A stretch of DNA of 61,930 nt, counting the filler, from Stramenopiles sp. TOSAG23-2 (lineage: Eukaryota), in NCBI GenBank assembly GCA_900128395.1. It is 5 parts of 5 records of this genome, joined end to end, with 100 filler letters (N's around TTAATTAATTAA, not from the genome) between each part and the next. Parts side by side here need not be neighbours in the genome. Positions count along the whole stretch, not along the records: positions 24,885 to 37,186 come from LT649864.1; 4 more parts are not named here. The stretch is one strand, 5' to 3'. A model generated the notes under the pieces. That model made no database searches. It saw only the letters and a list, made by a program, of their open reading frames with translations, and was not told the origin of the DNA. The position numbers and the translations under genes are program-made. Shown piece by piece: positions 10,767 through 61,930 of the stretch. Numbering within the stretch: position 1 is the first letter of the stretch; each line of letters begins with the position of its first letter.

Positions 10767-11011
10767 ATGTTTAATTAATTATACGAAGAATAGCAAGTTG
10801 CAATAAAATAAATAAGATATTATTTTTTCTATCGATAGTGTGTACATAAACTTTTTTTAACGCTACGCTCAACTCGCCATATGTAAAGTCATGTTTAATT
10901 AATTATACGAAGAATAGCAAGTTGCAATAAAATAAATAAGATATTATTTTTTCTATCGATAGTGTGTACATAAACTTTTTTTAACGCTACGCTCAACTCG
11001 CCATATGTAAA
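10767..11011. repeat. Exact 121-bp tandem duplication (10767-10887 / 10891-11011)
   Basis: Direct sequence comparison. Confidence 0.9.
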
Positions 11012-11026
11012 TCATATCAACTGTTA

Positions 11027-24884: not shown

Positions 24885-24889
24885 TTGCA

Positions 24890-25777
24890 ATGATAAATAT
24901 GTTTGCGAAAACATGTAAAAAATTTCTTGAATATGATCCGTTGCGTTGGTATTATTTTAGAGTTGTATTAGCAAAAAAATATGGAGTGAATTTTAATGAT
25001 AGTAGAATAACTTTCGCTGGAAAGAACATCAGTGATAAGGATTTACAAAATATAGCTGAAGCATTGAAAGGAAACAATACATTGACATACTTGGACCTAG
25101 ATAATAATAATATTATTGACATACAAATTATTGGTGAATTGTTAAAAACAAACAATACATTACAAATATTGGGCCTAGAAAATAATAATATTACTGATGT
25201 ACAAAGTATTGGTGATGCATTAAAAACAAACAATACATTACAAATATTGCGCCTAGAAAATAATAATATTACTGATGTACAAAGTATTGGTGAGGAACTA
25301 AAAACAAATGATACATTGACGTACTTGTACCTAGATAATAACAATATTATTGATGTACAAAGTATTGGTGAAGGATTACAAACAAACAATACATTAAAGA
25401 TATTGCGCCTATCTAATAATAATATTACTGACGTACAAACTATTACCGAAGGATTAAAAACAAACAATACATTAGCATCATTGAACCTATCTAATAATAA
25501 TATTATTGATGTACAAAATATTGGTGAAAGATTAAAAACAAACAACAGTTTAACGAGATTGGACCTAGATAATAATAATATTACTGATGATAGTGGAATA
25601 CAAACTATTATTGATGGATTAAAAACAAACAATACATTAAAGAGATTGCACCTATCTAATAATCAACTTAGTGATAATATGAAATCACAATTAAAAGCTA
25701 TGCAACAATATAAAAAAGATGGATCAAACGGGTATCAACAAGTGCAAGAGATGGTGATACAGACAGTATTATGGTAA
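24890..25777 (+). CDS. LRR protein, 26-aa RI/NLRC3-like repeats (5' end probably cut by contig edge)
   Basis: Eight LKTNNTLxxLxLxNNN units, mostly 78 bp apart, plus a C-cap shared with the gene at 61409. Confidence 0.85.
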   Translation: MINMFAKTCKKFLEYDPLRWYYFRVVLAKKYGVNFNDSRITFAGKNISDKDLQNIAEALKGNNTLTYLDLDNNNIIDIQIIGELLKTNNTLQILGLENNNITDVQSIGDALKTNNTLQILRLENNNITDVQSIGEELKTNDTLTYLYLDNNNIIDVQSIGEGLQTNNTLKILRLSNNNITDVQTITEGLKTNNTLASLNLSNNNIIDVQNIGERLKTNNSLTRLDLDNNNITDDSGIQTIIDGLKTNNTLKRLHLSNNQLSDNMKSQLKAMQQYKKDGSNGYQQVQEMVIQTVLW

Positions 25778-25911
25778 ATAAAATTAAGTTAATATATATA
25801 TATATACGTATATAATAATATTTTTTACTTCTCATGTTAAATAATATGCTCAATACTCAATCTGGAGAATAAATATTCTATCCTACTATTAATTTTTAAA
25901 ATTTCAGTTTT

Positions 25912-27045
25912 TTAAAAGTATATATGTTGGTATATATATGTTACTCCAGCACGACATTTACCTACTTCATAACCGACTGCATTTGAAACATTTACTGATA
26001 CCATTGTACGATTCAAATTGATTAGCACCAATCTATCTGCCAATATATTGTCCACCGTGGTTGACTCACATTCCAATATCACATTTGCGTCACATGAACC
26101 AGAATTGTTTGTATACCCTTTCACCAAATATATATGACAATGTCCAGATGAATTATGTTTCACACAAATGAATAACCCTTCTTTTAACTCTGAAAAATGT
26201 GATATTGGATTCATGCGGAATTTCTGCTGCAAACTTCTAATTAAATTTCTTGGTTTTTTTCGTAAGACCTCCCACCAATTAATAGTCGCATGATCCTTCC
26301 CCGCCACTGTTAGCCGATCGTTGGTTTCATCCAACAGGCTTACCATGTACTCTTCTGGTGGAGCACCAAGAATTTCCGACCACGAACTTTTTTGACCACA
26401 ACTTCCGCACTGTAATGAAAATGCCATTTTCTTCCATGTCACCTTTTCTTTTACCATAAGCAACCAAAACAACATAAACGATTTTACATCATCCCATTTT
26501 GCCTCTGGAGCATCACCTGCATTGTCTCCACATCTTCTCATCATATGCAAAACAAATCTCTTCTCGCTCCAACAGTTGTTGTAATCAATCACCCATTCAT
26601 CTACATTCTTATGCTTTTGTTGTTCCATCCCTTCCACATTATAACGCCAAAACTGTCGAAACTGATTACGTACAGCGGACCACCAGTTGCCTTTTAATTC
26701 AGTGTCATTTACAAATCTCACACATATATTATAGACAAATGCTATCTTATCCATTTTACCTTTGCCTACAGGAACTTCATTTGCATTTTCCAATATTTTG
26801 GACACTTTTTTAAAAAGTCCCATATCTGGCGCATATACTTCATTTCCATACATGCCCATACGGGCCTGAGTCATTTCTTTTTGACCAAACTCACTCGTTT
26901 TTATTTTCTCAAGGCCATGTAGCCAAATCAAACGATACACTACTTCCATTTGGGTAACCATTACAATCTTTTTAATACCATCAAATACCTTTTGTATTTC
27001 TTTTTCCATTTCCATTTCCATTTCTATTTCCATTTCTTCTGACAT
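25912..27045 (-). CDS. Orphan protein, 377 aa (CxxC; possible HUH motif GHCHIYLV)
   Basis: Intact ATG-to-stop ORF inside the candidate element; no family recognised. Confidence 0.7.
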   Translation of the reverse strand: MSEEMEIEMEMEMEKEIQKVFDGIKKIVMVTQMEVVYRLIWLHGLEKIKTSEFGQKEMTQARMGMYGNEVYAPDMGLFKKVSKILENANEVPVGKGKMDKIAFVYNICVRFVNDTELKGNWWSAVRNQFRQFWRYNVEGMEQQKHKNVDEWVIDYNNCWSEKRFVLHMMRRCGDNAGDAPEAKWDDVKSFMLFWLLMVKEKVTWKKMAFSLQCGSCGQKSSWSEILGAPPEEYMVSLLDETNDRLTVAGKDHATINWWEVLRKKPRNLIRSLQQKFRMNPISHFSELKEGLFICVKHNSSGHCHIYLVKGYTNNSGSCDANVILECESTTVDNILADRLVLINLNRTMVSVNVSNAVGYEVGKCRAGVTYIYQHIYF

Positions 27046-27236
27046 TTTCTTTCTTCTATAAATACAAATATATTGTTAATCCTTTCAATCTCTCTCTATA
27101 TATGTATATATACATATATACATAAGAAAAAAACTTCTACTACACTAATACTTATGTAAATACTTCCTTTTATATGTTTATGAAATATGTTAAAATTAGA
27201 AAACCCTGCATTATTATGTACTAAAACAATAGTTAT

Positions 27237-27675
27237 AACCAGTGTCCGCTATAACCTTAACTTCAATAAATTCTTGGACTTTGGTAATATTTCATTTTTT
27301 ACCAAAGTCTATTAATCCCATTAACAGGCCACACCATTGTCACCAGGATTTCCTTCAATTCATGAAGTGCTATCTGATGCTAAATGCCATCCACAGCCAG
27401 ACGTCAACTCCATACAGGGACACAGCATACAATACCTTTCCTACAGTTCTTACCTTATCCATTTATACTTAATTATACTCTTTCTAAATTTACAAAAATA
27501 TACACTACACACAACCAGTGTCCGCTATAACCTTAACTTCAATAAATTCTTGGACTTTGGTAATATTTAATTTTTTACCAAAGTCTATTAATCCCATTAA
27601 CAGGCCACACCATTGTACCTTATCCATTTATACTTAATTACTCTTTCTAAATTTACAAAAATATACACTACACAC
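27237..27675. repeat. Internal tandem repeat, 276-bp period; second unit lacks ~110 bp
   Basis: 27237-27340 ~ 27513-27616 and 27451-27512 ~ 27616-27675. Confidence 0.85.
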
Positions 27676-27724
27676 TACATACAGATAATGTAAAAACAAG
27701 TATATTAAAAAAAAGTTACTTTTT

Positions 27725-27982
27725 TTAATTCACATACTCCCAAAAGTCGACCAATCTTAACATTTCTAACATTGTCCATGTTGAAATATCATCAGCGTAC
27801 CTGACATCAGGGACCCACCCATTTCCAGTCCAAAGTAAGGGGCAAAGAGTAAATGTTCTGTTTACTACATTTGTAGAAAAATCAATTTCCATAATTTCGT
27901 AAATTTCACGATTTCCAGCATTATACGACATAATTATGTCATTTCTTCGAAAGCTACTTATGTTTTGAAAATTTTCATCCAT
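27725..27982 (-). CDS. Small orphan protein, 85 aa
   Basis: ATG preceded by an A-run as in other genes here; complex amino-acid composition. Confidence 0.55.
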   Translation of the reverse strand: MDENFQNISSFRRNDIIMSYNAGNREIYEIMEIDFSTNVVNRTFTLCPLLWTGNGWVPDVRYADDISTWTMLEMLRLVDFWEYVN

Positions 27983-28333
27983 TTTTTTTTTACTAAATGT
28001 TTTTTATTTCGAGTATTGTATATATTTGTAGTTATAAATAACTTTTTTAAAACTTTTCGATTTTTTTTGTAATGTATTATGTTTAGTTATACTGGTTTTA
28101 TATGTTCTATTGAAGTAGTTCTTTATTTTAATTTATTTGTATATATTTTATTATACTTCATTAATGAAATTATATAAAAGAAAATTATTATTATTATTAT
28201 CTGTATTTCTGGTATTGTACATTCCTATATAAAATTACTAGTAATAATAAACTCTCTCGCTGCTGCTAAATCCCTGCTGTTGATATACTATTTACAACAG
28301 CCTTTTTTCTGTCCTAGATCCCTTCCTTTTTCC

Positions 28334-28591
28334 AAAAAGTCTAGTGAATAGTGCACTACGTAGTATTGGTTATACAATATAGTCTAACTATTACTATAAT
28401 AGTATTATATTCTGAAAATTACCACAACTAGGAAATGTGCTATTATTACAGAGCTTTTCATAATGAATGGTTCTCATTACACGCCGACAAAAATATTATC
28501 TATTAACTAAATTTACAAACAAATTAAAATAAAAAGTCTAGTGAATAGTGCACTACGTAGTATTGGTTATACAATAGACTAACTATTACTA
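28334..28591. repeat. ~60-bp direct repeat with palindromes GTGCAC and ACTACGTAGT (28334-28396 / 28531-28591)
   Basis: Direct comparison. Confidence 0.8.
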
Positions 28592-29234
28592 GTATTGTAC
28601 TATACTAACAAACCTATTACCTATTTTATAACAACTACGTTGTATTGGCTTGAGGACACTAATGGTGTATTGCTGTTATTAAGCTACATTATGCTGTGTT
28701 CCTCCTTTCGAACAGAAATGGTGTGTTCCTGTTATTAAGCTATATACAGGCACACACCATGTACCATTTTTTCTCCACAACTATTAGCTGAATCAGCCGC
28801 CTGCCAAGACATACATTGTTAACATTTTTCAACACTATTGTTAATATACTTACAAGCTTCTTCCCTATATATCAACTTCCATTTTACCTCAAATAGATAA
28901 AATATAAAGTACATTTTTTATACTCTAACATTATCCTTCAAAGCCTACACTTTTTCGTTCAAATTTTGATACTGAGAATACATTTTACCAGTAAAATTTT
29001 ATGCCCCTTAAGTCATTTTCACCATTTAACGACATTGTAATTTCTTGGGCAGGGGTCCTTGCCTCACAGGCGTCTGTAACTTTATTTTATATTATCATTA
29101 TTTTAATAATTTGATAATATATATGAAAAATGAATTACTAAAGGAATAAAGTTGTTCACGAATGAAGGATAACAGATCCATCTCCGCAAACATTTACTCA
29201 AGTTTTAGATGAAAAGGTAACGAAGAAAGTAAAT

Positions 29235-30837
29235 ATGAATGAAAAACTTGCCAAATTGTTTTTGAAAGCATCTGAAAAAGAAGCTAAAAGCGATAAAATT
29301 AAAGAAGCATATTATAAAGTTCATTTAGCAATTTCAAAACTTCCGTATGTCATTGGTAATGCTGGTGCGCCGACAGGGAAAGAAATGGGTGAACATGGTA
29401 ACAAACATAAAGTACCTAGTATTGGAAAAGTATCTGGTTCGTATATTGATGAATATCTACGTACGGGTACGATAAAACATTTTAAGATCAATTATGGAAT
29501 GACATTTAATGAAGATAGTGAGGAGGAGAATAATAATAGTTCCAATAAAACAACACAAAATCTTGATCTTGGAGCAGCAGCTATTGATGGGGGTGTAACA
29601 AATGATGGATTACCTCTAATGCAACAGCATAAAGGCGAACAACTTAAACAAAGGTCCAAACAAAGGAAAAAAGCAGAACGTTTAGCTAAACATCAACTTG
29701 AAACAAAGGTCCAAACAAAGGAAAAAAGCAGAACGTTTAGCTAAACATCAACTTGATTCTGATAAAATAAGACAATTATCAGAAGAATATGCTACTTCAT
29801 TTGGCATTTCAAGAGAAAAAGCAACAGAAATTCTAAATGCAAATCCAATACTTCTACAAAATGGACAACTACAACAGCTTCGTCAAATGGGTCCTTTCTT
29901 AGAAATGTTTCGAAAAACTATTGCTGCACCACAGATTACAAAATGTGCCGCCTGCCATAAGCTACCAACCACACCATTGAATATGCCTTGTAATCATCGG
30001 TTGCGTTGTTATTATTTTAGAGTTGTATTAGCAAAAAAATATGGAGTGAATTTTAATGATAGTAGAATAACTTTCGCTGGAAAGAACATCAGTGATAAGG
30101 ATTTACAAAATATAGCTGAAGCATTGAAAGGAAACAATACATTGACATACTTGGACCTAGATAATAATAATATTATTGACATACAAATTATTGGTGAATT
30201 GTTAAAAACAAACAATACATTACAAATATTGGGCCTAGAAAATAATAATATTACTGATGTACAAAGTATTGGTGATGCATTAAAAACAAACAATACATTA
30301 CAAATATTGCGCCTAGAAAATAATAATATTACTGATGTACAAAGTATTGGTGAGGAACTAAAAACAAATGATACATTGACGTACTTGTACCTAGATAATA
30401 ACAATATTATTGATGTACAAAGTATTGGTGAAGGATTACAAACAAACAATACATTAAAGATATTGCGCCTATCTAATAATAATATTACTGACGTACAAAC
30501 TATTACCGAAGGATTAAAAACAAACAATACATTAGCATCATTGAACCTATCTAATAATAATATTATTGATGTACAAAATATTGGTGAAAGATTAAAAACA
30601 AACAACAGTTTAACGAGATTGGACCTAGATAATAATAATATTACTGATGATAGTGGAATACAAACTATTATTGATGGATTAAAAACAAACAATACATTAA
30701 AGAGATTGCACCTATCTAATAATCAACTTAGTGATAATATGAAATCACAATTAAAAGCTATGCAACAATATAAAAAAGATGGATCAAACGGGTATCAACA
30801 AGTGCAAGAGATGGTGATACAGACAGTATTATGGTAA
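29235..30837 (+). CDS. Chimeric HhH (Pol beta N-term-like) + partial RING + LRR gene, frameshifted by a 55-bp duplication (515 aa if the duplication is removed)
   Basis: 29646-29700 is repeated at 29701-29755; deleting one copy fuses ORFs 29235 and 29698 in frame. CAACHK...PCNHRLRC precedes the LRRs. Confidence 0.65.
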
Positions 30838-30971
30838 ATAAAATTAAGTTAATATATATATATATACGTATATAATAATATTTTTTACTTCTCATGTTAA
30901 ATAATATGCTCAATACTCAATCTGGAGAATAAATATTCTATCCTACTATTAATTTTTAAAATTTCAGTTTT

Positions 30972-32105
30972 TTAAAAGTATATATGTTGGTATATATATG
31001 TTACTCCAGCACGACATTTACCTACTTCATAACCGACTGCATTTGAAACATTTACTGATACCATTGTACGATTCAAATTGATTAGCACCAATCTATCTGC
31101 CAATATATTGTCCACCGTGGTTGACTCACATTCCAATATCACATTTGCGTCACATGAACCAGAATTGTTTGTATACCCTTTCACCAAATATATATGACAA
31201 TGTCCAGATGAATTATGTTTCACACAAATGAATAACCCTTCTTTTAACTCTGAAAAATGTGATATTGGATTCATGCGGAATTTCTGCTGCAAACTTCTAA
31301 TTAAATTTCTTGGTTTTTTTCGTAAGACCTCCCACCAATTAATAGTCGCATGATCCTTCCCCGCCACTGTTAGCCGATCGTTGGTTTCATCCAACAGGCT
31401 TACCATGTACTCTTCTGGTGGAGCACCAAGAATTTCCGACCACGAACTTTTTTGACCACAACTTCCGCACTGTAATGAAAATGCCATTTTCTTCCATGTC
31501 ACCTTTTCTTTTACCATAAGCAACCAAAACAACATAAACGATTTTACATCATCCCATTTTGCCTCTGGAGCATCACCTGCATTGTCTCCACATCTTCTCA
31601 TCATATGCAAAACAAATCTCTTCTCGCTCCAACAGTTGTTGTAATCAATCACCCATTCATCTACATTCTTATGCTTTTGTTGTTCCATCCCTTCCACATT
31701 ATAACGCCAAAACTGTCGAAACTGATTACGTACAGCGGACCACCAGTTGCCTTTTAATTCAGTGTCATTTACAAATCTCACACATATATTATAGACAAAT
31801 GCTATCTTATCCATTTTACCTTTGCCTACAGGAACTTCATTTGCATTTTCCAATATTTTGGACACTTTTTTAAAAAGTCCCATATCTGGCGCATATACTT
31901 CATTTCCATACATGCCCATACGGGCCTGAGTCATTTCTTTTTGACCAAACTCACTCGTTTTTATTTTCTCAAGGCCATGTAGCCAAATCAAACGATACAC
32001 TACTTCCATTTGGGTAACCATTACAATCTTTTTAATACCATCAAATACCTTTTGTATTTCTTTTTCCATTTCCATTTCCATTTCTATTTCCATTTCTTCT
32101 GACAT
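30972..32105 (-). CDS. Orphan protein, 377 aa, copy 2
   Basis: Identical translation to 25912-27045. Confidence 0.7.
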   Translation of the reverse strand: MSEEMEIEMEMEMEKEIQKVFDGIKKIVMVTQMEVVYRLIWLHGLEKIKTSEFGQKEMTQARMGMYGNEVYAPDMGLFKKVSKILENANEVPVGKGKMDKIAFVYNICVRFVNDTELKGNWWSAVRNQFRQFWRYNVEGMEQQKHKNVDEWVIDYNNCWSEKRFVLHMMRRCGDNAGDAPEAKWDDVKSFMLFWLLMVKEKVTWKKMAFSLQCGSCGQKSSWSEILGAPPEEYMVSLLDETNDRLTVAGKDHATINWWEVLRKKPRNLIRSLQQKFRMNPISHFSELKEGLFICVKHNSSGHCHIYLVKGYTNNSGSCDANVILECESTTVDNILADRLVLINLNRTMVSVNVSNAVGYEVGKCRAGVTYIYQHIYF

Positions 32106-32784
32106 TTTCTTTCTTCTATAAATACAAATATATTGTTAATCCTTTCAATCTCTCTCTATATATGTATATATACATATATACATAAGAAAAAAACTTCTAC
32201 TACACTAATACTTATGTAAATACTTCCTTTTATATGTTTATGAAATATGTTAAAATTAGAAAACCCTGCATTATTATGTACTAAAACAATAGTTATAACC
32301 AGTGTCCGCTATAACCTTAACTTCAATAAATTCTTGGACTTTGGTAATATTTCATTTTTTACCAAAGTCTATTAATCCCATTAACAGGCCACACCATTGT
32401 CACCAGGATTTCCTTCAATTCATGAAGTGCTATCTGATGCTAAATGCCATCCACAGCCAGACGTCAACTCCATACAGGGACACAGCATACAATACCTTTC
32501 CTACAGTTCTTACCTTATCCATTTATACTTAATTATACTCTTTCTAAATTTACAAAAATATACACTACACACAACCAGTGTCCGCTATAACCTTAACTTC
32601 AATAAATTCTTGGACTTTGGTAATATTTAATTTTTTACCAAAGTCTATTAATCCCATTAACAGGCCACACCATTGTACCTTATCCATTTATACTTAATTA
32701 CTCTTTCTAAATTTACAAAAATATACACTACACACTACATACAGATAATGTAAAAACAAGTATATTAAAAAAAAGTTACTTTTT

Positions 32785-33042
32785 TTAATTCACATACTCC
32801 CAAAAGTCGACCAATCTTAACATTTCTAACATTGTCCATGTTGAAATATCATCAGCGTACCTGACATCAGGGACCCACCCATTTCCAGTCCAAAGTAAGG
32901 GGCAAAGAGTAAATGTTCTGTTTACTACATTTGTAGAAAAATCAATTTCCATAATTTCGTAAATTTCACGATTTCCAGCATTATACGACATAATTATGTC
33001 ATTTCTTCGAAAGCTACTTATGTTTTGAAAATTTTCATCCAT
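32785..33042 (-). CDS. Small orphan protein, 85 aa, copy 2
   Basis: Identical translation to 27725-27982. Confidence 0.55.
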   Translation of the reverse strand: MDENFQNISSFRRNDIIMSYNAGNREIYEIMEIDFSTNVVNRTFTLCPLLWTGNGWVPDVRYADDISTWTMLEMLRLVDFWEYVN

Positions 33043-34294
33043 TTTTTTTTTACTAAATGTTTTTTATTTCGAGTATTGTATATATTTGTAGTTATAAATA
33101 ACTTTTTTAAAACTTTTCGATTTTTTTTGTAATGTATTATGTTTAGTTATACTGGTTTTATATGTTCTATTGAAGTAGTTCTTTATTTTAATTTATTTGT
33201 ATATATTTTATTATACTTCATTAATGAAATTATATAAAAGAAAATTATTATTATTATTATCTGTATTTCTGGTATTGTACATTCCTATATAAAATTACTA
33301 GTAATAATAAACTCTCTCGCTGCTGCTAAATCCCTGCTGTTGATATACTATTTACAACAGCCTTTTTTCTGTCCTAGATCCCTTCCTTTTTCCAAAAAGT
33401 CTAGTGAATAGTGCACTACGTAGTATTGGTTATACAATATAGTCTAACTATTACTATAATAGTATTATATTCTGAAAATTACCACAACTAGGAAATGTGC
33501 TATTATTACAGAGCTTTTCATAATGAATGGTTCTCATTACACGCCGACAAAAATATTATCTATTAACTAAATTTACAAACAAATTAAAATAAAAAGTCTA
33601 GTGAATAGTGCACTACGTAGTATTGGTTATACAATAGACTAACTATTACTAGTATTGTACTATACTAACAAACCTATTACCTATTTTATAACAACTACGT
33701 TGTATTGGCTTGAGGACACTAATGGTGTATTGCTGTTATTAAGCTACATTATGCTGTGTTCCTCCTTTCGAACAGAAATGGTGTGTTCCTGTTATTAAGC
33801 TATATACAGGCACACACCATGTACCATTTTTTCTCCACAACTATTAGCTGAATCAGCCGCCTGCCAAGACATACATTGTTAACATTTTTCAACACTATTG
33901 TTAATATACTTACAAGCTTCTTCCCTATATATCAACTTCCATTTTACCTCAAATAGATAAAATATAAAGTACATTTTTTATACTCTAACATTATCCTTCA
34001 AAGCCTACACTTTTTCGTTCAAATTTTGATACTGAGAATACATTTTACCAGTAAAATTTTATGCCCCTTAAGTCATTTTCACCATTTAACGACATTGTAA
34101 TTTCTTGGGCAGGGGTCCTTGCCTCACAGGCGTCTGTAACTTTATTTTATATTATCATTATTTTAATAATTTGATAATATATATGAAAAATGAATTACTA
34201 AAGGAATAAAGTTGTTCACGAATGAAGGATAACAGATCCATCTCCGCAAACATTTACTCAAGTTTTAGATGAAAAGGTAACGAAGAAAGTAAAT

Positions 34295-35731
34295 ATGAAT
34301 GAAAAACTTGCCAAATTGTTTTTGAAAGCATCTGAAAAAGAAGCTAAAAGCGATAAAATTAAAGAAGCATATTATAAAGTTCATTTAGCAATTTCAAAAC
34401 TTCCGTATGTCATTGGTAATGCTGGTGCGCCGACAGGGAAAGAAATGGGTGAACATGGTAACAAACATAAAGTACCTAGTATTGGAAAAGTATCTGGTTC
34501 GTATATTGATGAATATCTACGTACGGGTACGATAAAACATTTTAAGATCAATTATGGAATGACATTTAATGAAGATAGTGAGGAGGAGAAGAATAATAGT
34601 TCCAATAAAACAACACAAAATCTTGATCTTGGAGCAGCAGCTATTGATGGGGGTGTAACAAATGATGGATTACCTCTAATGCAACAGCATAAAGGCGAAC
34701 AACTTAAACAAAGGTCCAAACAAAGGAAAAAAGCAGAACGTTTAGCTAAACATCAACTTGATTTTGATAAAATGTTTATAGCATCGGGTTTAGTTGTTGA
34801 TTTAGAAACGACGATTCCCAGAAAAGGTTCGTATAATTTCGTCTTTGAAATTGGTGGAATTACAACAAATTATGATGTTAGTAACCAAAAAGAAACAACA
34901 TTTAATTGCATGGTAGATTTTGATTTAGAACAAAAAGAAGTCACATCATATAAAGATATTGAAAATAGACTAGAAGAACTTGGACAAGATGCAAAATTTA
35001 CGTTAAAATTTTGGAAAGAACATGTATTAATACCAAAATTCCAATGGTATAAACGCGATATATTTCCAGGAAAATTGGTTGAATCACGCAAAAATTGGAT
35101 GAAAGTGATTAAAAAATATGGGAATGGTAATGAAGATGATATTCCTACAACAAATGAGATGATGACTACCATTAAAAATGAATTTGGCGCATATTTCTTT
35201 TTTCCACAAAAATATGCGCTGCAGACATTTTTGAATTATAATTTAATGCTAAGCAAAACAATGCAAACAGATAAACAGATGTATTGGTATGCACATAATG
35301 GTAATAAATTTGATTTTTCCGTATTGGAAAAGGCATGTTGGAGATTAAATATTGGTTTAAATGTGAAAAGAATAGTTGTATTGAGAAAAGGCAATGATGA
35401 AGAAGATAAGGCTTTGTTTCAAAATTTTGGCATTACTGCTAATCGTAATCCTATAGATGGTCTTCAAATTATAGGATTTGATACTTTGCAATTTGCTAGA
35501 TTAAAAATTAAAAAAGGATGGAAAACAAAAAATAAACGTGCAGGTCATAGTCAAGAATCTTTATATGCAAGATATACGTCAACAACTCCAGAAATGGATA
35601 GTAAACCAGATGATGGAAGAGCTTTAGAAGTTTATGATGCTCATAATGCTGTTGATGATTGTATAGCTTTATTGAAACTAATGAAAGGTGTTGATGAGTA
35701 TTTAGAGACAAAGAAGAAGGAAATCATATAA
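34295..35731 (+). CDS. Pol-beta-type N-terminal HhH domain fused to DEDDh (DnaQ/TREX-like) 3'-5' exonuclease
   Basis: AYYKVHLAISKLP...VPSIGKVSGSYIDEYLRTG aligns to the Pol beta 8-kDa domain. ExoI VVDLETT, ExoII AHNGNKFDF, FDTL, ExoIII AHNAVDDC. Confidence 0.8.
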   Translation: MNEKLAKLFLKASEKEAKSDKIKEAYYKVHLAISKLPYVIGNAGAPTGKEMGEHGNKHKVPSIGKVSGSYIDEYLRTGTIKHFKINYGMTFNEDSEEEKNNSSNKTTQNLDLGAAAIDGGVTNDGLPLMQQHKGEQLKQRSKQRKKAERLAKHQLDFDKMFIASGLVVDLETTIPRKGSYNFVFEIGGITTNYDVSNQKETTFNCMVDFDLEQKEVTSYKDIENRLEELGQDAKFTLKFWKEHVLIPKFQWYKRDIFPGKLVESRKNWMKVIKKYGNGNEDDIPTTNEMMTTIKNEFGAYFFFPQKYALQTFLNYNLMLSKTMQTDKQMYWYAHNGNKFDFSVLEKACWRLNIGLNVKRIVVLRKGNDEEDKALFQNFGITANRNPIDGLQIIGFDTLQFARLKIKKGWKTKNKRAGHSQESLYARYTSTTPEMDSKPDDGRALEVYDAHNAVDDCIALLKLMKGVDEYLETKKKEII

Positions 35732-36095
35732 ACCACCGTGTTGAATAAATAAAAAATACTCGTACGGTGTGCAAAAAACGTACTGAGTGTATTTTTTTTT
35801 TTGAGATACGACAATACGACTTTGTATGATATCAATTTAATTAAATGCATAACTTATTTTTTATCATATTTTTTTTAGTATACCGAATTGGAATCATTTA
35901 AGACTTTATGATACAATTTTAATTATTTTTATTTTTTTAAAAAAATATTATATATAAAAAATACGAAAATATATTTTAATACCGTATATTTTTATATATA
36001 TTTTTTTTTAAACAACACAGAAACATATATAGTGTACATCTGGAAGCACTTAAGCCTCAACAGGATTATTTTCTGGTACGAGTTCGTAACTGCAT

Positions 36096-49803: not shown

Positions 49804-50297
49804 TAAAGAAAAATCAATGTTGACCAAGAAAATAATAAATTCATTTCAACAAGATATATATATATATATATACACGGACGTATTAACAACAAATCAAATA
49901 CAACACAAGAACATGTCATATGGACCATTAAAAAATATCAAAGTGTTGGAATTGGCAGGCTTAGCACCGGCACCAATGGCAGGAATGATCTTATCAGATT
50001 TTGGCGCAAACGTGATACGAATTGATCGTGCAGTAAATGGATATGCTCAAGGTGCTGGACCAGATGATTTAGCAAGAGGGAAAAAAAGTATTGCATTAAA
50101 TTTAAAATCAACAGAATAAAGAAAAATCAATGTTGACCAAGAAAATAATAAATTCATTTCAACAAGATATAAATATACTTTATAAAGAAAAATCAATGTT
50201 GACCAAGAAAATAATAAATTCATTTCAACAAGATATATATATATATATATACACGGACGTATTAACAACAAATCAAATACAACACAAGAACATGTCA
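49804..50297 (+). repeat. Three truncated copies of the AMACR 5' region, all starting at the same base (49804, 50117, 50183; full copy from 50298)
   Basis: Each begins TAAAGAAAAATCAATGTTGACC. Confidence 0.9.
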
Positions 50298-50406
50298 TAA
50301 AGAAAAATCAATGTTGACCAAGAAAATAATAAATTCATTTCAACAAGATATATATATATATATATACACGGACGTATTAACAACAAATCAAATACAACAC
50401 AAGAAC

Positions 50407-51645
50407 ATGTCATATGGACCATTAAAAAATATCAAAGTGTTGGAATTGGCAGGCTTAGCACCGGCACCAATGGCAGGAATGATCTTATCAGATTTTGGCG
50501 CAAACGTGATACGAATTGATCGTGCAGTAAATGGATATGCTCAAGGTGCTGGACCAGATGATTTAGCAAGAGGGAAAAAAAGTATTGCATTAAATTTAAA
50601 ATCAACAGAAGGACAAAATGCATTGAAAAAATTAGTGAGTGTTAGTGATGTAATTATAGAACCATTTCGACCTGGTGTCATGGAACGTTTAGGTTTAGGT
50701 CCAGAAGTTTTAATGAAATTAAACCCAAAATTAATTTATGCTCGTATGACCGGATATGGTCAAGGCGGTGTACCTATTTGGGGAGATCGTGCAGGTCATG
50801 ATGCAAATTATTTAGCATTAAGTGGTATGTTATCGATGCTACGTCAAAATAATAATAATATGGATCATTTAGGTGATGCCTCTAGACCATTTGGCCCATT
50901 GAATTTGCTTGGTGACTTCGCTGGTGGTGGTTTAATGTGTGCACTCGGTATTTTACTTGCAGTTATTGATCGACATAGCTCCGGTGTTGGACAAATTGTC
51001 GATGCAGCAATGGTTGATGGTGCTGCATATCTCGGAACATCATTGTTTAAATCGGTCAATGCTGGTAAATTAGGTTATAATAATGAAAGAATTGGTGGAA
51101 ATGGCTTTAATCAAGGAGCGCATTGGTATAATACATATAAAACAAAGGATGATAAATATGTTGCCGTTTGTGCAGTGGAACCACAATTTTACAAAGCATT
51201 TATTGAAGGTATTGGATTAAATTTAAATGAGTTACCAAGACAAATGGATCGTTCACAATGGCAAAATATGAAGAAAATGTGTCAAGATATATTTATCACA
51301 AAAACACGAAGTGAATGGGAAATACAATTCGATGGAGTTGATGCATGTGTTACACCTGTCTTGGATGTGATAGAAGCACAAAATTTCCCACATTCTGTTG
51401 AACGACGTACATTTTTACCAAGTTTAAAAGATCCAAATACACTTGAACCAACGCCTGCACCACATTTAAGCAAATCGCATAATGATTTCCAATTAAAACC
51501 TAGTCCCAAACCTGGTCAACATACGAGAGAAGTTTTAGAACAATATATGGATAAAAAAGAAGTGGATGAAATGTTTACATCTGGTTTTGCAAGTGATAAA
51601 TTAAGAGAAAGAAAGAAAAAGGTGAAAAAAGTTAGCAAATTGTAA
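50407..51645 (+). CDS. AMACR: Alpha-methylacyl-CoA racemase (CoA-transferase family III), peroxisomal
   Basis: [44 protein letters not shown]-terminal SKL. Confidence 0.92.
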   Translation: MSYGPLKNIKVLELAGLAPAPMAGMILSDFGANVIRIDRAVNGYAQGAGPDDLARGKKSIALNLKSTEGQNALKKLVSVSDVIIEPFRPGVMERLGLGPEVLMKLNPKLIYARMTGYGQGGVPIWGDRAGHDANYLALSGMLSMLRQNNNNMDHLGDASRPFGPLNLLGDFAGGGLMCALGILLAVIDRHSSGVGQIVDAAMVDGAAYLGTSLFKSVNAGKLGYNNERIGGNGFNQGAHWYNTYKTKDDKYVAVCAVEPQFYKAFIEGIGLNLNELPRQMDRSQWQNMKKMCQDIFITKTRSEWEIQFDGVDACVTPVLDVIEAQNFPHSVERRTFLPSLKDPNTLEPTPAPHLSKSHNDFQLKPSPKPGQHTREVLEQYMDKKEVDEMFTSGFASDKLRERKKKVKKVSKL

Positions 51646-58508: not shown

Positions 58509-58768
58509 ATATATATATATATATATAAATTTAAAATAATAATAATGGCAACGAAAAATGATGTAAATAACCAGGAAAACGTAACGGTTTCTAAGGATGG
58601 AAATAGTAAAGAACAAGTAGTAGATCAAAAACAACAAGATATATATATATATATATAAATTTAAAATAATAATAATGGCAACGAAAAATGATGTAAATAA
58701 CCAGGAAAACGTAACGGTTTCTAAGGATGGAAATAGTAAAGAACAAGTAGTAGATCAAAAACAACAAG
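58509..58768. repeat. Exact 130-bp tandem duplication over the start of the DOT1-like gene
   Basis: ATG context appears at both 58545 and 58675. Confidence 0.9.
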
Positions 58769-59676
58769 AAGAGAAAATAAAAGATGTAGTAGCTGATGAT
58801 AGTAACGAGGATGAAAATGATAGTAATGAAAAACCTAAACATCACCATATTCAACATGGACATCGTAACAAAGAATTACACAGATTATATACAACCTTGT
58901 TAGAGGATTATCCAGTTAATTTAGGCAAAGCAATATCAAAAAAACAACGTGAACGTGAACATTTAAAAGACCCAACTTTAGTTTATGGTGAAATTAAATA
59001 TAATTTTATGGCATTAATGTTTCGTGTAATGAAGGATGATTATGACGGTTTGCAAAAAGCCGGTGGTGTATTTTATGATTTAGGCTCAGGTACTGGTAAA
59101 CCTGTTTTTGCTGCTGCTATTTTGCATACATTTGAAAGATGCGTTGGCGTTGAAAAATTATCACAATTATATACAGCTTCATTGGAAATAACCGATCACT
59201 GGAGGAAATTAACTGATAGCGTAGATGATGATATAATGAGTGCAGAGCAAAAACGTTGTATGATTGAATTTATAAATGATGATATAAAAAATCCAGAATT
59301 TTCGATGTCGGATGCTACAGTTGGATTTGCAAATTCGACTTGCTATGATGAAGAGTTGATGATTCATATTGCATCCAAAGCTGATGAAATGGTTGCTGGA
59401 TCATTTTTTATTACTGTCACAAAACGTCTTCCATCTTTACAATGGGATTTATTAGAAATGGAACGTTATAAAATGTCATGGGGTGAAGCAAATGTTTTCC
59501 TACATCGTAAAAAAGATGATGATTGGCAAGAGCAACAATTGGAAGCTGAGGCAAGGCAAAAAGAGGAAGAAGAGGAGGAAGAACGAGCTAGGAAAGAAGC
59601 GGAACAAAGTAGTGGAGATGAAGAAGAAGTTGAAAATTTATTAGTAGGTGGGGAAGATGGTAGTGGTTTGCTTTAA
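58675..59676 (+). CDS. DOT1-like SAM-dependent methyltransferase
   Basis: LVYGEI, FYDLGSGTGKPV, GVEK, FANSTCYD, MSWG. Confidence 0.8.
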   Translation: MATKNDVNNQENVTVSKDGNSKEQVVDQKQQEEKIKDVVADDSNEDENDSNEKPKHHHIQHGHRNKELHRLYTTLLEDYPVNLGKAISKKQREREHLKDPTLVYGEIKYNFMALMFRVMKDDYDGLQKAGGVFYDLGSGTGKPVFAAAILHTFERCVGVEKLSQLYTASLEITDHWRKLTDSVDDDIMSAEQKRCMIEFINDDIKNPEFSMSDATVGFANSTCYDEELMIHIASKADEMVAGSFFITVTKRLPSLQWDLLEMERYKMSWGEANVFLHRKKDDDWQEQQLEAEARQKEEEEEEERARKEAEQSSGDEEEVENLLVGGEDGSGLL

Positions 59677-59905
59677 TCAAAGGGGAAGTAAAAGATAATA
59701 AATACGAGTTCGTATTATACCACGAAAATATACGAGACGTATGCATAGTATTTTTAAAATATGAGAAGAAGTTGAAAATTTATTAGTAGGTGGGGAAGAT
59801 GGTAGTGGTTTGCTTTAATCAAAGGGGAAGTAAAAGATAATAAATACGAGTTCGTATTATACCACGAAAATATACGAGACGTATGCATAGTATTTTTAAA
59901 ATATG
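59622..59905. repeat. Exact 142-bp tandem duplication
   Basis: 59622-59763 / 59764-59905. Confidence 0.9.
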
Positions 59906-59983
59906 AATTATTATTAATGTTACGCGCGCCATTATTATTTTTTACTCTCAAACATTTTCTAGTCTACACGGCATCAGCCTCTT

Positions 59984-60932
59984 TTACTCAAACATAAATG
60001 ATGCAACTTTAACACCCATTAATACATTATCGTAAATCATTTTACCATTTGCATTTGGTCCAGCAGATGCAGCAGCTACATGCAATGGAATCAAATGTTC
60101 TTCACGTGGATGGCAAAATCTAGCTTCTGGACCATCTACCCATTAATACATTATCGTAAATCATTTTACCATTTGCATTTGGTCCAGCAGATGCAGCAGC
60201 TACATGCAATGGAATCAAATGTTCTTCACGTGGATGGCAAAATCTAGCTTCTGGACCATCTTCCCAAGTTAGCAATGTATTGATCATATTTGTTGTATCA
60301 TTTGTTTCTATATTCTTTTTTAAATAATTATGAAATGCAACAGATTTTTCCATTGCATTACTTCCACCACCAAAAGCACGCATATTATGAAAAGACATAC
60401 CAGATCCAATGATTAAAACATCGTTATTATCTTCACGAACTTTGGATAATATTTTTCCTAAATTTACATGATCTGTTGGATTTAAGCCTCCTATTAATGA
60501 AATTTGTATTACTGGTATATCTGCTTCTGGGTACATTAATTTTAGTGGTATAAAAACACCATGATCAAATCCTCTACTAACTAATTCCACATTTTCAAAC
60601 ATCGATGATGATTTAAATAAATTATAAATATTTGAAGATAGCTCTAATGCACCATTTACTTTATATGTCAAATGCGGTGCATATGCCTGTGGTGGGAAAC
60701 CATAATAATCATATAATAACTCACCATTTTCATGCCCGGTTGATATTTGAATTGCACTATTAGATGTAGATTCCCAATGTGCAGATATAACTATAATTTG
60801 TTTCGGTCTTCTTGGAATATATGTTTTTGGCAATTCAATTAAAAATTTAGATAATTCACCATGTGTTTTCATATCTAATATTGGCATTGGGCCACCACCA
60901 TGTGCTAAAAAGAAGGTTGGTAATGAGGACAT
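59984..60932 (-). CDS. LigB-family extradiol dioxygenase (4,5-DOPA dioxygenase-like); 3' end disturbed by a 124-bp duplication
   Basis: AHGGGPMP, ISAHWE, YDYYGFP, RGFDHGVFIPL, GSGMSFHN, HPREEHLIPL. Removing one copy of 60014-60137/60138-60261 restores ...DNVLMGVKVASFMFE* (274 aa). Alternative ATG at 61082 adds a hydrophobic leader. Confidence 0.88.
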
Positions 60933-61408: not shown

Positions 61409-61930
61409 TCATACTACTGTCCATATCACCATCCATTCCACTTGTTGATACCCGTTTGATCCATCTCTTTTATATTGATCTATAGCATTTAATTGTGATA
61501 TCATATTATCACTAAGTTGATTATTATCTAGGGACAACCAATATAATGTATTGTTTGTTTTTAATACATCAATAATACTTTGTATTCCACTATCATCAGT
61601 AATATTATTATTAGATAGGTACAAGTGCGTTAATGTATTGTTTGTTTTTAATCCTTCACCAATACTTTGTACACTAGCATCAGTAATATTATTATTCTTT
61701 AGGTGCAAGTGCGTTAATGTATTGTTTGTTTTTAATCCTTCACCAATACTTTGTACATCAGTAATAGTAATATTATTATTCTTTAGGTGCAAGTGCGTTA
61801 ATGTATTGTTTGTTTTTAATCCTTCACCAATACTTTGTACATCAGTAATATTATTATCAGATAGGTACAACCACTTTAATGTATTGTTTGTTTTTAATCC
61901 TTCACCAATACTTTGTACATCAGTAATATT
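61409..61930 (-). CDS. LRR protein of the same 26-aa family as 24890/30001, 5' part outside the window
   Basis: DVQSIGEGLKTNNTL repeats and C-cap NNQLSDNM.SQL.A..QYK.DGSNGYQQV..MVI.TV. Confidence 0.88.
   Translation of the reverse strand, partial: NITDVQSIGEGLKTNNTLKWLYLSDNNITDVQSIGEGLKTNNTLTHLHLKNNNITITDVQSIGEGLKTNNTLTHLHLKNNNITDASVQSIGEGLKTNNTLTHLYLSNNNITDDSGIQSIIDVLKTNNTLYWLSLDNNQLSDNMISQLNAIDQYKRDGSNGYQQVEWMVIWTVV

What the first reader, a model, noticed from the sequence alone, without database searches (positions are those of the whole stretch)
29235..30837. In-frame domain swap at the duplication junction: HhH-halfRING-LRR chimera
Seen: the same ~155-aa HhH leader continues into a DEDDh exonuclease at 34761 but into a unique ~245-bp segment at 29756-30000. 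That segment is helical, then reads CAACHK...PCNH and runs in frame into the LRR. The same LRR has a different upstream sequence at 24885-24940 (…FAKTCKKFLEYDP, loosely like an F-box end). Both switch points have short near-matches (ATTCTGATAAAAT vs ATTTTGATAAAAT; TTGCGTTG). Three architectures are thus built from shared modules either side of the candidate element. Inference: active exon-free domain shuffling creating new sensor-effector combinations. The RING is incomplete, and a 55-bp duplication currently breaks the frame.
Basis: partly seen in the sequence, partly recalled or inferred. Interest (0 to 1): 0.7.

Follow-up and report, generated by a model that had tools for sequence, protein, structure and literature searches.

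The report
Young fusion gene inside misassembled duplication
In a marine protist genome, the proposed three-part fusion gene is mostly a product of assembly errors, but its first join, between pieces of a nuclease gene and a ubiquitin-ligase gene, looks like a real, recently formed fusion.

Summary
The letters are as described, but the three joins differ in status.
(1) The 55-bp duplication is an artefact. The assembly's overlap length is 55, and a separately assembled contig of run X2 reads HhH into the unique segment without it.
(2) The HhH-to-unique-segment join is in contigs of runs X1 and X2, which are one study and perhaps the assembly's source. The segment is a diverged piece of a RING-RBR-MORN E3 ligase gene.
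(3) The half-RING-to-LRR join is contradicted. The X1 contig matches 299 of 299 letters up to 30000, exactly where RBR homology stops, then leaves the window sequence (about 202 letters). No listed piece bridges the join.
(4) The normal exonuclease gene is a 566-576-aa membrane-anchor-HhH-DEDDh protein. The window's copy looks like a mosaic (6 private residues in HhH, 0 in the exonuclease).
(5) The normal LRR head is F-box-like (14 of 18 contexts).
Best reading: a real young HhH-RING(-RBR?) fusion, with the LRR join and the 4.75-kb tandem copy made by assembly or amplification.

The parts
24885..24949 (+). End of the F-box-like head of the LRR family, cut by a contig start (first 55 nt are a shared assembly-graph node)
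   Evidence: three contigs start with the same 55-mer (one differs at base 1) and then diverge; full head seen in paralogs; Pfam gave no F-box hit
24950..29701 (.). Copy 1 of the 4752-bp near-exact repeat (LRR, 377-aa orphan ORF, HhH)
29090..29188 (+). Upstream element 81% like the region upstream of the RBR gene on G000:C1555; stands where the normal exonuclease gene has its membrane-anchor coding region
   Evidence: public proteins; loose end before 34261 in run X17
29201..29768 (+). Derived HhH (Pol X-type HHH_8) segment taken from the anchor-HhH-exonuclease gene; ATG 29235 is an internal Met of that gene; 5 private substitutions, a 1-codon insertion, and F>S at 29759
29646..29755 (+). Exact 55-bp head-to-tail duplication, an assembly overlap artefact
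   Evidence: X2 record 17 joins 34706 to 29702 with 57 shared letters and no second unit
29769..30000 (+). Segment U: diverged piece of a RING-RBR-MORN E3 gene (helical part and first four RING ligands), with 3-nt and 33-nt in-frame deletions
   Evidence: covered without a difference by X1 record 1
30001..30837 (+). LRR gene body of the F-box-like-LRR family; its join to U is probably an artefact
30010..34761 (.). Copy 2 of the repeat; probably the same DNA written twice through a graph loop
   Evidence: inference
34295..35731 (+). HhH-DEDDh exonuclease ORF, 478 aa; lacks the ~100-aa anchor region of public alleles; derived HhH part on a normal exonuclease part

Best explanation
Shown: the organism carries a derived HhH segment fused in frame to a derived piece of a RING-RBR-MORN E3 ligase gene, and the 55-bp duplication is not in the DNA. 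Inferred, origin: a duplicate of the RBR locus had its start and first ~42 codons replaced by ~570 bp from the anchor-HhH-exonuclease gene, by ectopic, nearly homology-free recombination. That made a young chimeric gene without the membrane anchor. Inferred, continuation: after 30000 the gene most likely goes on into the rest of the RING, and perhaps the RBR-MORN body, not the LRR. Inferred, function if expressed: an E3 ligase whose N-terminus is a DNA-binding HhH module, under relaxed or positive selection. Inferred, artefacts: the RING-to-LRR join came from an amplification chimera or a graph mis-join. It closed a loop that the assembler wrote out as a 4.75-kb tandem repeat, and the assembler left the loop through the shared HhH into the normal exonuclease gene.
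For: 55-bp unit: C1555 end and C8656 start overlap by exactly 55; three contig starts agree through base 55; five other 98-100% head-to-tail repeats of 115-142 nt lie in the window; X2 record 17 lacks the unit. HhH-U join: X1 record 1 (29702-30000, 0 differences, depth 4.1) and X2 record 17 (34595-34706 + 29702-29948, 0 differences, depth 5.5) bridge 29768; an RBR-type upstream element lies before the HhH; 14 private changes in HhH+U are all nonsynonymous (13 if one shared with public RBR proteins is dropped), against 3N/9S for C1555 vs the wild RBR (Fisher p 7e-5). Against the LRR join: X1 record 1 stops matching at 30000, the last RBR-homologous base, with 202 letters left over; all four laid runs list a loose end before 30001 that is the F-box-like head; no listed piece bridges 30000/30001; no public protein with U+LRR or HhH+U. 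Mosaic second copy: 6 residues found in none of 11 public alleles lie in the first 158 aa and 0 in the last 320 (binomial p 0.0013); X2 holds both states at 34594. Another contig has a 6.7-kb, 99.8% repeat around a head of the same LRR family.
Against: The 202 letters were not printed, so 'rest of the RING' is inferred. Table 8 hid 948 pieces and table 7 hid 102 loose ends. The X2 contig ends at 29948 and says nothing on the LRR join. X1 and X2 are one study, may be the assembly's source and may be the same amplified DNA, so the HhH-U join has no independent support. No second RING 3' half was found in G000. C8656, a second diverged RBR 3' part, shows 14N/12S, unlike U, so it cannot be tied to U. 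The LRR join is in frame and has T at 30009 where copy 1 has G. No transcript of the fusion was seen.
Confidence: 0.62

Rival explanations
1. One reading: HhH-halfRING-LRR and the tandem duplication are real in at least one cell or haplotype, beside a non-LRR continuation in another, so a young HhH-RING stem is being joined to different C-termini.
For: Both joins and three indels keep the frame. The LRR after U has the family-consensus T at 30009, not copy 1's G, which a simple jump back onto copy 1 does not explain. That base puts a Cys in the register of the fifth RING ligand. The two copies differ at 29531/34591. Other LRR members have rearranged starts (4 of 18 contexts counting this one). 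The middle of the repeat is deeper than the exonuclease in X1 and X2 (5.8-9.2 vs 2.8-4.1), though the tool says this is no copy number.
Against: X1's contig leaves the window at 30000. One of the other odd LRR starts (C1451) is an exact 151-bp head-to-tail repeat of the artefact class. At most 5 of 8 RING ligands remain, so neither cross-brace zinc site is complete (established RING chemistry, recalled). No public protein or contig with the join was found.
Confidence: 0.22
2. Every join is artificial: HhH and U are separate diverged paralogs joined by an amplification chimera that was sequenced twice.
For: X1 and X2 have similar depth patterns and belong to one study. Directly oriented MDA chimeras were mostly between distant segments (58 of 69) and often had no overlap (PMC1855051, passages). 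The one metagenome contig holding U's start has the ordinary RBR 5' end.
Against: The RBR-type upstream element sits in front of the HhH, as a replacement inside an RBR duplicate predicts. HhH and U share the same private, all-nonsynonymous pattern. No other home for either derived piece was found in G000. That X1 and X2 are amplified DNA is my inference.
Confidence: 0.1
3. The HhH-U fusion is real but is a dead, truncated patchwork pseudogene: U ends in unrelated DNA and no protein is made.
For: Loss of purifying selection fits the changes about as well as adaptation. A frameshifted RBR paralog exists in public data (P0023). No transcript was seen.
Against: Three indels and the join are all frame-preserving, with no stop codon. 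The all-nonsynonymous pattern has p about 0.01-0.04 under neutrality (post hoc, few alleles).
Confidence: 0.06

Closest known systems
Young chimeric genes formed from two duplicated genes (Drosophila jingwei, Sdic; recalled, not from a call)
   Same: In-frame fusion of pieces of two parental genes that still exist, with a burst of amino-acid changes afterwards
   Different: DNA-level replacement in an intron-poor marine protist; 3' end, expression and population spread unknown
RBR (RING-between-RING) E3 ligases, Ariadne/Parkin type
   Same: The donor of U (P0020, 623 aa; C1555) has an extra N-terminal C3HC4 RING, a RING1-like region, an IBR_2 hit and a GCHH motif like the catalytic RING2 site (motif reading recalled)
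   Different: The donor ends in MORN repeats; the window keeps only the first four ligands of the extra RING
DEDDh 3'-5' exonucleases (RNase T / DnaQ superfamily)
   Same: DLE, HNGxxFD and HNAxDD motifs kept in the three full-length relatives aligned; RNase_T hits below cut-off; Atlas feature hits at 0.93-0.94
   Different: The protist family has an N-terminal hydrophobic anchor and either HHH_8 or a GRF zinc finger before the nuclease
F-box/LRR (FBXL-type) substrate receptors
   Same: Short conserved head followed by an LRR array; 43 head matches in G000
   Different: No Pfam F-box hit; poly-Thr leader
MDA chimeras and de Bruijn repeat collapse in single-cell assemblies
   Same: k-length overlaps left in place, near-exact long repeats, joins with little overlap; a SPAdes single-cell assembly of Chlamydomonas had 1,607 misassemblies (bioRxiv 10.64898/2026.06.11.730069, passages)
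   Different: Here one join (HhH-U) survives in separately assembled contigs and has its own divergence

Membership tests
C3HC4 RING / RBR E3 ligase (window chimera as deposited) | Eight zinc ligands of a cross-brace RING | tested here: not met
   C-x2-C...C-x-H present, a fifth Cys supplied by the LRR side, the last three absent; zf-C3HC4_3 E 0.082
C3HC4 RING / RBR E3 ligase (inferred true continuation) | Complete RING and RING1-IBR-RING2 after 30000 | tested here: inconclusive
   X1 contig leaves the window at 30000 but its letters were not printed; donor has them
Young chimeric gene | In-frame join of parts of two identifiable parental genes, present in the DNA | tested here: met
   Parents P0001 and P0020/C1555; join bridged in X1 and X2 contigs; one study only
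Young chimeric gene | Transcribed across the join | tested here: inconclusive
   The one RNA run laid (X17) gave no piece over U; contigs do not show absence
Young chimeric gene | Present in independent individuals | tested here: inconclusive
   Only runs X1 and X2, whose independence is unknown
DEDDh exonuclease (34295-35731) | Exo I D-x-E, Exo II D, Exo III H-x4-D | tested here: met
   DLE, HNGNKFD, HNAVDD in the ORF and its full-length relatives; Pfam below cut-off
HHH_8 (Pol X-type helix-hairpin-helix) | Pfam PF14716 at gathering score | tested here: inconclusive
   Window 20.9 bits, cut-off 30; relative P0024 passes at 32.5
F-box/LRR | F-box motif in the head | tested here: inconclusive
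   No Pfam F-box hit for the C3695 member; likeness by eye only
Amplification or graph chimera (U-LRR join) | Join absent from other cells or from unamplified reads | tested here: inconclusive
   Contradicted by 1 contig of 1 run; raw reads not available

The most novel reading that the evidence does not exclude
This block is a live shuffling site. A young, anchor-less HhH-RING stem, evolving faster than neutral, is joined to different C-termini in different cells (RING/RBR in one, a member of the hypervariable LRR family in another), so new ubiquitin-ligase or receptor architectures segregate within a wild protist population.
Probability: 0.2. Interest if true: 0.6.

Novelty: new member of a known kind. 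Interest (0 to 1): 0.27.

Why it matters
If the HhH-RING fusion holds, it is a young chimeric gene in an uncultured marine protist with both parents identified, which makes its origin and selection testable. It would put a DNA-binding module on a ubiquitin ligase. That is a known route to new genes, not a new mechanism. The practical lesson is larger: in this assembly, exact head-to-tail repeats of 55-150 bp, near-exact multi-kb repeats and joins into the LRR family should be treated as suspect until reads confirm them.

Tried and rejected
Microhomology-driven shuffling at both switch points: rejected, because the cited near-matches belong to the flanking genes.
Public proteins with HhH+U or U+LRR: none. 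One search gave 1 hit among 335 candidates (262-837 aa), one search gave 1 among 12 (208-664 aa), one search gave 1 among 3 (57-182 aa), and one search gave 16 hits. Proteins outside these lengths were searched only. None of 6 window ORFs is in the collection by exact match.
Metagenome scan for U's start: 1 contig, an ordinary RBR-MORN gene.
Wild runs X8 and X17 gave little or no cover of U or of 30962-34111 while covering the exonuclease gene; a part without cover proves nothing. Only 4 of 21 listed runs were laid; the others hold 0.00-0.28 of the words and count as no evidence.
A second RING 3' half in G000: not found. C8656 as the 3' half of the fusion: not supported. The anchor-coding 5' part in G000: not found (the assembly is incomplete). 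Depth as copy number: not usable.
PDB sequence search: best E 0.23.
Literature: searches (0 papers; 1 listed, irrelevant; 0 papers) found nothing on this fusion; one search listed 1 preprint on MDA chimeras. No supplements were read. No structure or complex prediction was run.

Full report
Setting. The window is AT-rich, intron-poor eukaryotic DNA in contigs joined by N spacers. G000 has 32.8 Mb in 9,146 contigs. Most runs that hold the stretch are labelled marine or seawater. The finding lies on contig C1658, which starts at 24885.

What the letters show. 24950-29701 recurs at 30010-34761 with one mismatch. Between the copies lie the rest of an exact 55-bp head-to-tail repeat (29646-29700 = 29701-29755) and a short segment. 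Without one 55-bp unit the frame is open from 29235 to 30837, 515 aa. Pfam gives HHH_8 below cut-off, a weak partial RING and clear LRRs.

The 55-bp unit is an artefact. Contig C1555 ends with the first 55 letters of C8656. Contigs C1658, C977 and C688 begin with the same 55-mer (one differs at base 1) and then diverge. The assembly's overlap is therefore 55; that this is SPAdes' default largest k is recalled. Five more 98-100% head-to-tail repeats of 115-142 nt lie in the window. A contig of run X2 passes from 34706 to 29702 with 57 shared letters, that is HhH into the segment with no second unit.

Where the modules come from. Segment U (29769-30000) matches a gene on C1555 and a metagenome contig that encodes a 623-aa RING-RBR-MORN protein. 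U differs from it by 10-11 substitutions and in-frame deletions of 3 and 33 nt. The LRR belongs to a family with 43 head matches in G000; 14 of 18 start contexts examined carry the F-box-like head directly upstream. The HhH-exonuclease belongs to a public cluster of 42 members (15 listed) whose full-length forms are 566-576 aa with an N-terminal hydrophobic anchor. Wild DNA and poly(A) contigs bridge HhH and exonuclease (X8 34261-35242, X17 34261-35736). The X17 contig has a loose end before 34261 that reads as the anchor-side linker. In the window this 5' part is replaced by an element 81% like the region upstream of the RBR gene. The first copy thus reads RBR-type upstream DNA, HhH, RBR coding piece. 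That is what a replacement inside a duplicated RBR locus would give (inference).

The HhH-U join. Contigs of X1 (29702-30000) and X2 (to 29948) bridge it with no differences. These runs are one study and may be the source of the assembly, so this shows the join was not made by this assembler but is not independent support. The fused parts share a private history. 14 changes not found in the comparison alleles are all nonsynonymous; one of them also occurs in public RBR proteins, and one of X17's ten differences was not displayed. The comparisons are 3N/9S for C1555 vs the wild RBR and 0N/3S for the exonuclease part. Under neutrality the all-nonsynonymous pattern has p about 0.01-0.04 (post hoc). 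Three indels and the join keep the frame. I take the fusion as probably real.

The U-LRR join. X1 record 1 (506 nt, minus strand) matches record places 203-501 to 30000-29702. Record places are in the record's own orientation, as shown by X17 record 16 (18 and 34 loose letters) and by the 30-nt overlap of X2 records 19 and 20. So 202 letters continue past 30000 and do not fit the LRR. Under the other reading, 5 letters would follow 30000 and still fail to match. The match ends on the last base shared with the RBR donor, so the rest of the RING is the simplest continuation, but those letters were not printed. All four laid runs list a loose end before 30001 that is the F-box-like head, and no listed piece bridges 30000/30001; many rows were hidden. 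For a real join: it is in frame, it carries the consensus T at 30009 where copy 1 has G, and it places a Cys in RING register. Even so, at most 5 of 8 ligands remain, so the deposited chimera would not be a working RING. Directly oriented MDA chimeras were 15% of cases and mostly joined distant segments (PMC1855051, passages). That these runs are amplified is my inference.

The second copy. The window's HhH-exonuclease has six residues found in none of 11 public alleles, all in the first 158 aa, and none in the last 320 (p 0.0013). X2 holds both states at 34594. This fits a derived HhH collapsed onto the normal gene. A recent real recombination between the two is possible but needs an extra event. 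C628 has a 6.7-kb, 99.8% repeat around a head of the same LRR family, which shows such repeats recur in this assembly but does not prove they are false.

Comparison and verdict. The real part works like the young chimeric genes known from flies (recalled). The rest matches known single-cell assembly errors (bioRxiv 10.64898/2026.06.11.730069, passages). Searches found nothing on this fusion, and sequence look-ups among earlier notes found nothing. The three-part HhH-halfRING-LRR gene is probably not real (about 0.2). A two-part HhH-RING fusion probably is, but its 3' end, expression and function are not shown. Interest 0.27.

Noticed in passing
window 34295-35731; P0001, P0024-P0028: An unnamed protist family of N-terminally anchored DEDDh exonucleases carries either HHH_8 (P0001, P0024, P0025) or a GRF zinc finger (P0026, P0028) before the nuclease: an older, real domain swap. 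A poly(A) contig covers the gene. It recalls membrane-anchored nucleases such as EXD2 or TREX1 (recalled, untested).
   Followed up: partly
L033 (G000:C2918): The nearest own-genome relative of the HhH is the C-terminal HHH_8 of a zf-PARP-SAP-HHH_8 protein with no PARP catalytic hit, 44% identity; also in public data (P0030, P0039).
   Followed up: partly
window 30001-30951: Single LRR-family contigs have word depths of hundreds to over a thousand against about 5 for neighbouring DNA in X1 and X2, and tens to hundreds against about 5 in X8. This suggests a very large family, but the tool says depth is no copy number.
   Followed up: no
window 10767-11015, 49804-50610, 58509-58769, 59622-59906, 60014-60266: Near-exact or exact head-to-tail repeats of 115-142 nt, and a 313-nt exact repeat that doubles the first 100 codons of the ORF at 50311; all look like assembly overlaps.
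   Followed up: partly
L067/L068 (G000:C628): A 6.7-kb, 99.8% identical repeat about 16.7 kb apart that includes ordinary-looking genes and a truncated head of the LRR family.
   Followed up: partly
L042 (G000:C8656); P0023: A second, 5.5% diverged RBR-MORN 3' part, and a frameshifted public RBR paralog: this E3 family has several young copies.
   Followed up: partly
window 61409-61930: Another member of the same LRR family on the minus strand, 84% identical, cut by the window end.
   Followed up: no
window 25912-27045 and 30972-32105: 377-aa orphan ORF inside the repeat, with no convincing Pfam hit.
   Followed up: no
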